Counted from the first letter of the stretch, positions 42,672 to 55,835 are shown. The stretch: DNA of 64,000 bases from Eledone cirrhosa (GCA_964016885.1 OZ024743.1:319362001-319426000), one strand, 5' to 3'. Program-made: numbers and translations. The notes: a model not told the origin generated them from the sequence alone.

Positions 42672-43142
42672 AAGTTGACGGAACTAGCATGGGTATCACT
42701 GCTAGGACCGGTTGCATCTCACCATACTAAATAGGTAATGTTAAACAAACTCCCAGAGTATACACATAGTTATTCGCTTCAATACAACACACGTAAACGG
42801 GTACTTTCAGTTATTCCGAACTCGAGTTTCGGCCACACTCAATGCAGCAGCAGGGTGCACTGCGCCCTCTGTCCGTATATATTATGTAACAATGCATAAT
42901 CGGCGCATGTGGCTTCATCAGCGGGTTTCGCCTAATCAATAACCAATCGATCGAAAGAATTCGACTCCAGTCTGTGCCGGCTATGGTTGTTTGTGACGGC
43001 CACACAGTAAAGCGATTAACAACTGGAATCTCTACGCATCACAATGCTGTCCTCTGATTGGCTACCGATTTATAAATTTACGTGATGGCAGGAGACAAAA
43101 ATTCAAATAGTTCTGCCCCTGCCATAAGCACTCAGCCAACGT
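42672..43142 (-). mobile_element. ~470-bp non-coding hammerhead element (retrozyme-like), copy 1
   Basis: Homologous end to end with 55367-55835; hammerhead at 42815-42925. Confidence 0.8.
42815..42925 (-). ncRNA. Hammerhead with extended stem II
   Basis: CCG-CTGATGA-A-GCCACA...TGTGGC-C-GAAA-CTCGAG-TT-CGG. Confidence 0.7.
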
Positions 43143-43156
43143 ATGTATATGTATAT

Positions 43157-43305
43157 AAGGAAAAGAAATCGAAAATGCAACTGGAGTCTTTTTAAGAATA
43201 TTTATTTGTTTCCTTTACCGGTTTCACAGTTCTTATGCTTTTCAAAAGTAGAATGAGATGGAGGGTTTGTGGTTTTACACGCATCTGGTTGGTGTTCGAC
43301 AATTG
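43157..43305 (-). mobile_element. Family F1 copy without inversion (diverged)
   Basis: gaaatcgaaaatgcaactggagtc...ttaccggtttcacagttcttatgcttttcaaaag matches the F1 left arm and extends beyond it. Confidence 0.8.
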
Positions 43306-43789
43306 TGTGTGGTGTGTGTGTGTGTGTGTGTGTGTGTGTGTGTGTGTGTGTGTGTGTGTGTGTGTGTGTGTGTGTGTGTGTGTGTGTGTGTGTGTGTGTG
43401 TGTGTGAGTGTGTGCGTGTTTGCGTGAGTGTGTATACGTATATATATATATATATATATATATGGGATAACAAGTTATCGCTGTAGGTAATCCAGTTAGA
43501 GGTTGGGAGTGCTCTGCGTCGTGTATGTTATTGTTTTAATTATACGCTATTTCTCTATATAAGTGTTGCCTCGAGTGAATTATTTTCATATCTACATACT
43601 CTGATGTGTTGACCATAGTTGAATAATGTATTGGAGATCGAATAACGCAACATCAAGCGATTAGCGAACTCTAGACCCACATGATCAACGAAACAATTGT
43701 CAGTACTTTAAATAAAGCCCTTATTGTACAGCCAACCATGTTAATCTTCATTCTTTAACTATATATATGTATATATATATATATATATT

Positions 43790-44202
43790 TAAAAGAATAG
43801 AGGTGTAACACACAAGTTATTATATATTGGTAAACGGAATAGAAAATGCTGACAAATTGTTCACAGTGAAAAATAGTTTAATTAGGAATAAGTGAGAATT
43901 AGTAATTGTATTGGTTAGTATTCAGTTTTGGTTTTAAGCTTTACCGGTTGCGCATTTCTAATGCTTTTCAAAAATAATTTTGAGATAGAGCGTCCGTGAT
44001 GTTTGCTCTGATCAGAGCAAACATCACGGACGCTCTATCTCAAAATTATTTTTGAAAAGCATTAGAAATGCGCAACCGGTAAAGCTTAAAACCAAAACTG
44101 AATACTAACCAATACAATTACTAATTCTCACTTATTCCTAATTAAACTATTTTTCACTGTGAACAATTTGTCAGCATTTTCTATTCTGTTTACCAATATA
44201 TA
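43790..44202. mobile_element. Fold-back hammerhead element family F1b in (TA)n
   Basis: ~190-bp arms centred on CTCTGA|TCAGAG (44011/44012), no loop; core TTGAAAA-GCAT tagaa ATGC-GCAA-CCGG-TA. Confidence 0.85.
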
Positions 44203-44269
44203 TATATATATATATATATATATATATATATATATATATATATAGAGAGAGAGAGAGAGAGAGAGAGAG

Positions 44270-46340
44270 AGGGGTGGAGCGTTCCACAACAAATTAAGAA
44301 ACCATACATGAGAACAAGCGTTTCACCAAAAGGATTCTTCAACTCGTGTATATTTATAGCGAGAACGGAAGTATCTATGAGCTGGCTTGATACTGCGAGG
44401 CAGATATTAGTAGTTGAGGCTGTGAAAGGGAGGTAACCCACGTATGAATGTTGTAAGGGAACAACGTTTTAAGAACGATCCCTTGTGATAGTTCAACCCG
44501 GGTTTAACTTCTTGTTATCCTGGGTCCTTCCAGTTACGTAATATAAAATTGACAGCATAGGAGCAGCGACTAAAAGCATCGACTCTCATGTTAAGGAAAG
44601 AATTGTTATGTAACCTCTGCAAAATATTTGTTCTTTCATTGATGCACAACTTACAAGACTTCGTTCGATTTCCGTATGGATTCCATTTTGTGAGGACTTT
44701 CCATTGGGTGAAGAAGTTCACGCCTGAATCCTTGATTGAACATATGTGGCTCGTCAGCTTCGTGGACAACCACTTGTCAGAGTATCTAAAGGTCGTTTGA
44801 TGTTTAAGGAAGAGTTCTTTAAACTGAACTGGCCCTCCGACACGCCTACATATGTTTTTACTTTCCGCTGTTGATTCGGCCGGCTGAATCTAACTTCAGC
44901 CTCGAAGATACTGCTGTTTAAGATGGTATGATTCTGGCTTTCTGCAAGAGCATCAAGGTGGGGGTGCACTTTTGGGGTTGGTGGTTACGTGGGCTTTCAT
45001 ATTTTTAGCACAGTGATATCCGAGTTACACCCTGTTAAAGGCAGATCTGTGCGTATGCCCTACAGAGAAGACCTTGTCCAGTAGCTCTAGGAATTTCTTA
45101 CCTACATTATTTCTAGCTTGGATTGGCAGTATCGGTAGAGGGTTGGACGCCATGCTTTGCAGCAAAGAGTTACAGCCCTTTATGGTCTGAGTTCATATCC
45201 CGCCGAGGTTAACTTTGCCTTTCATCCTTACGGGGTCGATAAAATAATGTACCAGTAATACACTGCGATAATTGCTGGCCTTGTGCCAAAAGTAGAAAAA
45301 ATTATTTCTAGCTCCAAGCGAGAAGGGTGGACAGAACCAAATTATCTTTTTATTACTATTTTTTCTACTGCTAGTGTGATTAGGTGGGGGATAGGGCATT
45401 TTATAGGAGAATCCGCTGTTGGCTAACGCGGTGCCGCTCTGTCAAAGATGGGCTTGTTAGAAGAAACATTTGCAATCCTAGTGCTGATGTTTTTGACAAC
45501 GGTTTTAAAGACCGTAGGTGGTTGACATGAGTCCTTGATGTATTTCAGTCAATTATTAATTGCGTTTGTGGAAAAATCTGAATGTGCGTGTGTTAAGGTC
45601 TAGGTTGATGTCTAAATAATTTACGCTAGTCAGATTGGTGGCTGCAGTGATCTTATTTCTATCAGTGATCGATAGGTAGAAGTCTACTATTTCGAACTAG
45701 GGGAATCTAGCTTTGTTGGTGGTGAAAGAGTAAATCCACTTAATAACAGAGTCGCTGTTTTCCCATTAGGACAGGTTGGGTGGATTTTTTTTCCTAATGG
45801 TCACGACTAGTCATCTAAGTATAGATTTGCTAACAAGTTCTATCTCTGTCCGTGCTGGGTTTAACAGTCTGTAAGTGGGGTAAGTAGCAAAATCGGCTTT
45901 GTAATCCGTAAGGGTCATAAAAGCCTCACGATTAGCTAGGCATTTTAGTTTCATTTCTACATTAAGGGTAGAGGCTCGGTGCTTGGCTTCCCTATTGATA
46001 TTAACATAAAGCTGAGGGGTCTGCGTTTTTTATTCTTTGATGTTATGGTTTTGCATGTCAAGTGATTGTAAGTAGGTTGGTCAACTTCGTAAATATTATT
46101 AGTTTTATCAGATAGGACAAAAGTATTATTGGAGGATCAAAATTTGTTAATGCCTCTGCTAAGTTTGTATTGGAAAGGGTTAAAGTGTTTGCGAAAAGTA
46201 ATGTTAGCAACTAAGTCAAGAAGGTCCGCTTCGAAAGGAGCCAGGTCATTTACATTGGGCGGATAGGCTCTAGATTTCAGGTTGTCGGTGTTGATAATGC
46301 TCGTAATTTTTCCGTCCATCACAAGCATTTGACGTTTCGA
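44270..46340 (-). mobile_element. Penelope-like retroelement, Naiad-like; degenerate and internally deleted
   Basis: LAPFEADLLDLVANITF..NPFQYKL, YRLLNPARTEI, IVDFYLSI, YLDINL, KIIWFCPPFS, KTYVGVSEG (GIY-YIG) and CKLCINER motifs; 3' hammerhead-like motif at 44306-44349. Confidence 0.85.
45119..45300 (+). mobile_element. SINE family A inserted in the Naiad-like ORF, 13-bp TSD
   Basis: TSD ATTATTTCTAGCT at 45106-45118 and 45301-45313; excision restores FSLGARNNVGKKFLELLDK. Confidence 0.92.
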
Positions 46341-54535: not shown

Positions 54536-54551
54536 TATATATATATATATA

Positions 54552-54780
54552 TAAAATAAAGTAATTAAGTCAAATATTTAAGATTTGGCTTCGTTTATTA
54601 AAGTCTGCATACATCTTTAATAAACGAAGCCAAATCTTAAATATTTGACTTAATTACTTTATTTTACATTACTCCGGAGTAACCAAACCAACCTGCGTAC
54701 TTCGTCGAGTGCTCCAATCTGCATATTAAGGTGTCGGTAAACAACCAACATATACTAAAACAAAATAAAAAAAAATAAAA
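54552..54780. mobile_element. Fold-back element family F4 in (TA)n
   Basis: 52-bp perfect arms (54552-54603 and 54615-54666), 11-nt loop, one-sided tail. Confidence 0.8.
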
Positions 54781-55019
54781 ATATATATATATATATATAT
54801 ATATATATATATATATATATATATATATATATATATATATATATATATATATATATATATATATAAATATATATATATATGTGTGTGTCTGTGTGTGTGG
54901 GTGTCTGTGCGTGTCTGTGTGTGTGTGCGTGTCTGTGTGTATGTGCGTGTCTGTGTGTGTGTGTGTGTATAATGTATAAATAGATATATGCATGTATATA
55001 CATGCGAATGTAATAAAAA

Positions 55020-55330
55020 AACAAAACAGAAAAAGGAAGAAATATATTACTTTAACGCTTGATATAGTGGGAAACGAGTGATAATGTTTCGTACACTAGT
55101 TCTTCATCAGAAGATAGGAGAAATATATATATATTGTATATATATATATAGACATTGTACCCCAAAATGGTTGACTGAACTTCCTTTTTTCACTCTCTAT
55201 GTTTCTGTTTCTTCTTTTATTTCTCCTATCTTCTGATGAAGAACTAGTGTACGAAAGCCATGGGCCTTGGAGACATGAACCGAATGCTACCATTCTATTT
55301 TATATCAATGTGAACTGCTATTTCTAATGG
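55020..55330. mobile_element. Inverted pair of pLTR-like fragments with degenerate hammerhead cores
   Basis: 55087-55125 is the reverse complement of 55218-55256 (ctgatgaagaactagtgtacgaaa). Confidence 0.6.
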
Positions 55331-55366
55331 CCATCTTTTCACCCTTTGATAATTTGTGTGTGAGAC

Positions 55367-55835
55367 ACGTTGGCTGAGTCCTTCAGACAAGAACGAAAAG
55401 ATTGATTCTTTTTAGCTTCCCGTCCCCACGTAACATTTGTAAATCAGTGGCTAGTTGAGAGATAGAGTCTTATCGGGTGCCAATTGCTAATAGCTTTACC
55501 GTGTCAGTCGTCACAAACAGTCATGGCCGACATAGACTGGTCTTAGGATTCTGTCGATCGATTGGTTATTGATTAGGCGATACCCGCTGATGAAGCCGCA
55601 TAAGCCGATTGTGCATTGTTACATAATATATGCAGACAGATAGTGCAGTGCACCTTACTGCTGCATTAGTGCGGCAGAAACTCGAGTCCGAGAACCTTAT
55701 AGGCACTCGTTTTACGTGTGTTGTATTGAAGCAAATAACTTTGTGCATACTCTGGTAATGTATCTTATATTGCCCATGGAGTGCGCTGAGGTACAACTGG
55801 TACTGGCATTGATAAATATGCTGGGTCCATCAACC
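55367..55835 (+). mobile_element. ~470-bp non-coding hammerhead element (retrozyme-like), copy 2
   Basis: Starts ACGTTGGCTGAGT and ends TCC(A/G)TCAAC like copy 1; hammerhead at 55583-55692. Confidence 0.8.
55583..55692 (+). ncRNA. Hammerhead with extended stem II, GUC cleavage triplet
   Basis: CCCG-CTGATGA-A-GCCGCA...TGCGGC-A-GAAA-CTCGAG-TC-CGAG. Confidence 0.7.

What the first reader, a model, noticed from the sequence alone, without database searches (positions are those of the whole stretch)
42672..55835. A ~470-nt defined-end non-coding element with a covarying, branched hammerhead
Two diverged copies (42672-43142 minus; 55367-55835 plus) start at the same point (ACGTTGGCTGAGT) and end at the same point before a TA-rich repeat, unlike randomly truncated PLE ends. 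Both keep CTGATGA, GAAA and the palindrome CTCGAG. Stem II covaries (GCCACA/TGTGGC versus GCCGCA/TGCGGC) and encloses ~65 nt able to form sub-hairpins. The 5' end TGGCTGAGT resembles a Pol III A-box, but I see no clear B-box. Inference: a self-contained SINE-like retrozyme, possibly undescribed.
Basis: partly seen in the sequence, partly recalled or inferred. Interest (0 to 1): 0.8.

Follow-up and report, generated by a model that had tools for sequence, protein, structure and literature searches.

The report
Gene-less Penelope-type retrotransposon with branched hammerhead
These are two shortened copies of an abundant, gene-less jumping element about 850-900 bases long that carries a predicted self-cutting RNA with an unusually large branched arm and is likely copied by the enzyme of a Penelope-like retrotransposon; it is a variant of a known kind, not the self-contained 470-base element first proposed.

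Summary
The two copies and the hammerhead motif are real; the defined 470-nt element is not. The shared start is where copy A happens to be truncated: copy B runs 111 nt further, and 60 position-ordered genomic copies start anywhere along the unit, while 48 of 60 reach one 3' end, usually at (TA)n. The true unit is 840-900 nt without a conserved ORF, present in over a thousand dispersed copies; the longest are partial head-to-tail tandems (at most 1.7 units, no dimer in 81), some with inverted 5' pieces, the Penelope-like (PLE) signature. The hammerhead has PLE features (4-bp stem I, extra A after A9, palindromic stem III) plus a conserved ~68-nt branched stem II and an extra base before GAAA. 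No Pol III boxes or tRNA head. Best reading: a non-autonomous PLE / non-LTR retrozyme, likely mobilised in trans. Cleavage, expression, circularity and the driver element are untested or not found. New variant of a known kind.

The parts
55256..55852 (+). Copy B: 5'-truncated copy (about 70% of a unit) of the youngest subfamily, ending in CTTATTATTAT then (TA)n
   Evidence: profile match, positions 217-815; 111-nt upstream homology
42658..43145 (-). Copy A: 5'-truncated copy of an older subfamily, with TA-rich repeat on both sides
   Evidence: profile match, positions 327-815
55583..55692 (+). Type I hammerhead motif of copy B: stem I CCCG, core at 55587, extra A, branched stem II, GAAA at 55677, C-UCGA-G stem III, predicted cut after 55688; 3' strand of stem I damaged
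42816..42925 (-). Hammerhead motif of copy A: core at 42921, GAAA at 42830, predicted cut after 42819; one G of stem I lost
55595..55675 (+). Stem II with its insertion: two sub-hairpins on a 7-bp base
   Evidence: fold of an intact copy z -3.6; pair counts
55689..55709 (+). Hairpin just 3' of the cut site, predicted to compete with stem I
   Evidence: pair probabilities; pairs 700-720 in the subfamily fold
55442..55574 (+). Long predicted hairpin upstream of the hammerhead (17-bp outer helix), kept through many G-U-compatible changes; coordinates approximate
   Evidence: helix 453-585 of the unit
55844..55936 (.). (TA)n at the 3' junction of copy B, the likely target
42630..42672 (.). (TA)n at the 3' junction of copy A

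Best explanation
It is a dispersed, non-coding 840-900-nt repeat with a hammerhead motif, ragged 5' ends, a fixed 3' end at (TA)n and partial head-to-tail tandems, and it is likely a non-autonomous Penelope-like retroelement (non-LTR retrozyme type) copied in trans by a PLE reverse transcriptase-endonuclease. Shown: unit length, ends, tandem and inverted arrangements, absence of a conserved ORF, a ladder of subfamilies, invariance of the ribozyme core. Inferred: a more-than-unit copy is transcribed; the RNA folds and is bound by a PLE protein, which nicks (TA)n DNA and starts reverse transcription inside the RNA at the UUAUUAUUAU junction; synthesis usually stops early, giving 5'-truncated copies such as the two here, and sometimes passes the junction, regenerating a copy with two hammerheads. 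The hammerhead is likely a slow, dimer- or protein-assisted cutter held off by a competing hairpin; it likely trims the 5' end of some templates, and may yield unit-length circles.
For: Copy number: 954 exact matches to a 16-mer of the ribozyme, control 0, 157 more for an older variant, about 2,870 first-look candidates. Ends: 48 of 60 reach the 3' end, 41 of these with TA/TAT repeat, 26 of 60 have (TA)n at the 5' junction, starts spread 1-630. Junction: 82 places; 66 carry an upstream 3' fragment, 69 continue through a whole unit; the other 13 break at 13 different places into unrelated DNA. Inverted 5' pieces at L170, L180 and L168/169; one copy ends 37 nt past the junction, like a PLE tail (L105). 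No conserved ORF: longest ATG frame 37-107 codons in 32 full units, and subfamily indels shift the frame. Core 0 of 11 positions variable against 330 of 938 columns; the cleavage base changes A>U>C, G in only 9 places. Subfamily-majority fold -147 versus -77 +/- 6 for 30 column shuffles, 125 of 146 pairs kept in all seven groups. Short helix I, base between 9 and 10.1 and palindromic helix III match PLE hammerheads (PMC4209133). 3 of 81 upstream fragments, from three subfamilies, start at the predicted cut (about 0.3 per position expected; weak hint).
Against: No autonomous partner found: two GIY-YIG families show no homology to the unit and short-stem-II patterns gave 4 and 3 places, four of them deletion derivatives and three unrelated. 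The base before GAAA is unpaired (A.C or A.A), so the canonical 10.1-11.1 pair is displaced; a strict published filter rejects such hits (PMC3088659). Stem I is predicted unformed in nearly all of 60 copies and RNAalifold on the raw copies prefers another fold without stem II. Double-sided changes (10) do not exceed shuffles (mean 6, max 11); stem II has one. 0 of 100 copies picked just downstream of the cut start at it. Rfam has no hammerhead hit. Older single copies fold little better than shuffles (z -1.2, -1.5).
Confidence: 0.8

Rival explanations
1. The template is a unit-length circular RNA made by double hammerhead cleavage and ligation, reverse transcribed round the circle (classical retrozyme cycle). 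This is a variant of the best explanation, differing in template.
For: More-than-unit copies cross both the junction and the cut site: 32 of 82 extend past the cut, 17 hold a whole second hammerhead region; 5 have two recognisable hammerheads. A young unit folds as a circle at z -7.2. Model proposed in PMC4209133 and shown for other animals in PMC7229834.
Against: No dimer or multimer among 81 more-than-unit copies, and only 1 of 67 with a full unit has over 420 extra nt, where constant truncation predicts about a third. Fragments starting at the cut need a linear RNA. Circular RNA was not tested.
Confidence: 0.3
2. The copies are only the pLTR/3' ends of an autonomous PLE whose ORF was missed.
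For: PLE copies are mostly 5'-truncated and their hammerheads mostly occur as single motifs (PMC4209133); my searches score only the best candidates.
Against: In 69 of 82 junction copies the DNA after the junction is the non-coding unit to its 3' end, in old and young subfamilies alike; the other 13 share no body.
Confidence: 0.07
3. A Pol III SINE of about 470 nt with defined ends.
For: Fixed 3' end with a short simple-repeat tail; TGGCTGAGT resembles an A-box.
Against: Ragged 5' ends; word lies mid-unit; no box match in 3 units; no tRNA in 5 loci; partial tandems.
Confidence: 0.03
4. The hammerhead is a non-cleaving relic conserved only as a protein-binding structure.
For: Displaced 10.1-11.1 pair, competing hairpin, weak stem III; the anole PLE inserts without hammerhead cleavage in vitro (PMC11167929); 8 of 9 Xenopus retrozymes did not cleave (bioRxiv 10.64898/2026.07.22.740005).
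Against: Every core base is invariant and the cleavage base avoids G over the lineage; 3 fragments start at the cut. The 40 nt upstream of the core are as conserved, however, so invariance alone is not specific to catalysis.
Confidence: 0.25

Closest known systems
Non-LTR retrozymes of animals (Cervera and de la Pena 2020, PMC7229834; Li et al. 2026, bioRxiv 10.64898/2026.07.22.740005)
   Same: Non-coding, one type I hammerhead per unit, head-to-tail arrangement, low GC, proposed PLE mobilisation; unit lengths of 51-972 bp are reported, so 840-900 is within range.
   Different: Dispersed truncated copies up to 1.7 units instead of dimers to multimers; PLE-type rather than canonical hammerhead; large branched stem II; circular RNA untested.
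PLE pLTR hammerheads (Cervera and de la Pena 2014, PMC4209133)
   Same: Helix I of 4-5 bp, long helix II, unpaired base between 9 and 10.1, small palindromic helix III.
   Different: Helix II carries about 68 nt of branched RNA instead of a small loop; an extra base precedes GAAA; no ORF in the element.
Non-autonomous PLEs such as MRC1 of Chlamydomonas (Craig et al. 2021, PMC8557442)
   Same: pLTR-forming partial tandems, 5' truncation, inverted 5' copies, tail, microsatellite targets as described for PLEs.
   Different: Those resemble an autonomous family at the 3' end and their clade lacks canonical hammerheads; here no partner was found and a hammerhead is present.
tRNA-derived SINEs
   Same: Non-coding, fixed 3' end with simple repeat.
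   Different: No tRNA head, no A/B boxes, no fixed 5' end, tandem permutation.

Membership tests
Non-autonomous PLE | Ragged 5' ends, fixed 3' end | tested here: met
Non-autonomous PLE | Partial tandems forming pLTRs; inverted 5' pieces; tail | tested here: met
   66 of 82 junction copies; inversions; one tail-like copy
Non-autonomous PLE | No RT/endonuclease ORF | tested here: met
Non-autonomous PLE | Homology to the pLTR of an autonomous PLE | tested here: inconclusive
   none in two families out of many or by patterns
Non-LTR retrozyme | Type I hammerhead in each unit | tested here: met
Non-LTR retrozyme | Tandem dimers or multimers of complete units | tested here: not met
   0 of 81, maximum 1.7 units; copies with two hammerheads do exist
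Non-LTR retrozyme | Expressed as linear and circular monomer RNA | not testable with these tools
   no RNA holder listed
Hammerhead ribozyme type I | Core C3-A9, G12-A15.1, U16.1, H17 | tested here: met
   0 of 11 variable; H17 = A, U, C
Hammerhead ribozyme type I | Pair 10.1-11.1 directly next to the core | tested here: not met
   extra A on the 5' side and extra C or A before GAAA; older subfamilies could form G-C there by bulging a C, the youngest cannot
Hammerhead ribozyme type I | Self-cleavage | not testable with these tools
   only a weak genomic hint
Pol III SINE | Fixed 5' end with A and B boxes or tRNA head | tested here: not met

The most novel reading that the evidence does not exclude
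A viroid-sized (840-900 nt), gene-less, highly structured RNA replicon that has evolved as one lineage in this animal, whose hammerhead is an allosteric switch: the branched stem II domain binds the PLE protein or a second RNA to license cleavage, a downstream hairpin keeps it off, and cleavage in vivo has left copies that begin at the cut site.
Probability: 0.2. Interest if true: 0.65.

Novelty: new variant of a known kind. Interest (0 to 1): 0.4.

Why it matters
What PLE hammerheads do is open: in vitro they are slow or dispensable. A gene-less element that kept its core unchanged through seven subfamilies, with a large conserved stem II domain that descriptor and Rfam searches miss, is a clean test case for whether cleavage or circularisation is needed and for what a PLE protein recognises in trans. 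It also suggests hammerhead counts based on short stem II descriptors are too low. The class itself is already described.

Tried and rejected
Rfam scans of the window and of a two-hammerhead copy: no hammerhead. One search folded the wrong strand and is ignored. No RNA holder listed; the two contig runs laid are of unknown kind, one study, and say nothing on expression; they pointed to the GUA subfamily. CpG decay as the source of the covarying pair: rejected, the change runs A-U to G-U to G-C towards the young subfamily. An ORF from the ATG within CTGATGA (about 87 codons in some young copies): rejected, frames differ between subfamilies. A hard 5' limit about 400 nt upstream of the junction: softened by one copy with 583 extra nt. 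Pile-up of starts at the cut site in ordinary copies: 0 of 100. Driver search in two GIY-YIG families: no homology. The cluster on C3 at 139 Mb is a duplication of 4-5 kb period, not a tandem of the unit. Earlier findings: three look-ups empty. Paper searches listed no description of this element or of a cephalopod hammerhead element; repeat libraries such as Repbase and Dfam could not be searched and the bioRxiv supplements were not seen, so it may already be catalogued.

Full report
Observation. The window comes from a 3.0-Gb animal assembly rich in (TA)n; the landscape recalls an octopus, which is my recollection and was not tested. They are independent insertions of different subfamilies; the DNA between them is unrelated.

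Ends. Searches of the genome gave about 2,870 first-look candidates per copy, of which 40 were scored and 30 fetched each. Nearly all continue upstream of the supposed start: 56 of 60 share upstream sequence with another copy, from 12 to about 520 nt, copy B for 111 nt. To avoid best-hit bias I took 60 copies in genome order by two ribozyme patterns (954 and 157 matches). Their 5' starts spread evenly from profile position 1 to 630 (the patterns exclude shorter copies; two rows are arms of one inverted pair); 48 reach the common 3' end, 41 of them with TA or TAT repeat, and 26 have (TA)n at the 5' junction.

Unit. The longest copies are preceded by their own 3' end across a TTATTATTAT junction, giving a unit of about 845 nt in young and 885-900 nt in older subfamilies. 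I examined all 82 exact junction matches: 66 have an upstream fragment, 69 run through a full unit, and 13 break at 13 different places with no shared sequence beyond. Among 81 distinct more-than-unit copies none is a dimer; the longest is 1.7 units, and 1 of 67 with a full unit exceeds 420 extra nt. Inverted 5' pieces and one tail-like end occur. No ORF is conserved. No tRNA head or A/B box was found. These are the PLE hallmarks described in PMC8557442 (passages read).

Lineage. Of 130 copies of 300 nt or more, 11 near-duplicates were dropped; the 119 left form a ladder that I cut by eye into seven groups lying 9.4% to 3.8% from their majority letters. The unit is non-coding throughout, so it has persisted as such.

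Hammerhead. Against: the raw-copy consensus prefers another fold, stem I is predicted to lose to a hairpin just 3' of the cut, the 10.1-11.1 pair is displaced, which the filter in PMC3088659 (passages) would reject, Rfam finds nothing, and both window copies have stem I lesions. Only 4 places match a short-stem-II version, 3 of them deletion copies, so the insertion is a fixed family trait.

Mechanism. Shown: architecture and conservation. Inferred: transcription of more-than-unit copies, binding by a PLE protein, nicking of (TA)n, internal priming at the junction and premature stops. PMC11167929 (parts 1-2 of 4) shows AT-rich cleavage and internal initiation for an anole PLE, though at a site not homologous to the target, and found cleavage protein-assisted and dispensable in vitro. 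Three of 81 upstream fragments, from three subfamilies, start at the predicted cut and three more within 4 nt, but microhomology makes similar clusters elsewhere and 0 of 100 copies picked downstream of the cut start there: a hint only. A circular template (PMC7229834, passages and discussion) explains read-through of the junction but predicts more long copies than seen.

Driver. Intact, young PLEs exist here (775-codon frames), but neither this family nor the GIY-YIG family next to copy A is homologous to the unit. The partner is not identified.

Novelty. A 2026 preprint (10.64898/2026.07.22.740005; parts 1-3 of 5 read, supplements not seen) already frames animal retrozymes as non-autonomous PLE derivatives of 51-972 bp. 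Searches listed no description of this family; PMC13282606 (passages) mentions Penelope-like families in an octopus but no ribozyme. Verdict: new variant of a known kind, notable for the branched stem II and long structural conservation. Interest 0.4.

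Noticed in passing
window 55080-55260: A minimal hammerhead of another repeat at 55233 (+) with an inverted copy at 55110 (-); copy B's 5' end joins it through a 4-nt microhomology just after its GAAA.
   Followed up: partly
window 9641, 17489, 39485 (+), 62606 (-): Further minimal hammerhead-like motifs with the extra A after CUGANGA; 17489 lies downstream of an RT fragment at 16117-16524.
   Followed up: no
window 44515-44889 (-): GIY-YIG-like fragment of a very abundant PLE-type family (42,751 candidates) with a minimal hammerhead in its 3' end and (TA)n after it.
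   Followed up: partly
window 10008-10355, 19475-20013, 23979-24451, 37608-37920, 43759-44245: Several long inverted repeats flanked by (TA)n; three are related and one relative abuts copy A at 43143-43285.
   Followed up: no
L091, L093, L095, L099 and others: The 3' end of a SINE-like repeat sits at the TTATTATTAT junction in 10 of 82 junction copies, suggesting a shared target.
   Followed up: partly
L404-L406; G000:C4:298746153-298748477: A very young PLE-type family with many 98-99% identical copies and intact 775-codon frames, flanked by long direct repeats; no canonical hammerhead seen by my pattern.
   Followed up: partly
window 55689-55709: In copy B two changes break stem I but keep the competing hairpin paired (CGAG with CTCG); may be chance.
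   Followed up: no
window 10901-11645: 36-bp minisatellite, 20.7 copies, 95% matches.
   Followed up: no
G000:C3:139.27-139.53 Mb: At least ten near-identical copies of the element inside a larger duplicated unit with 4-5 kb spacing.
   Followed up: partly
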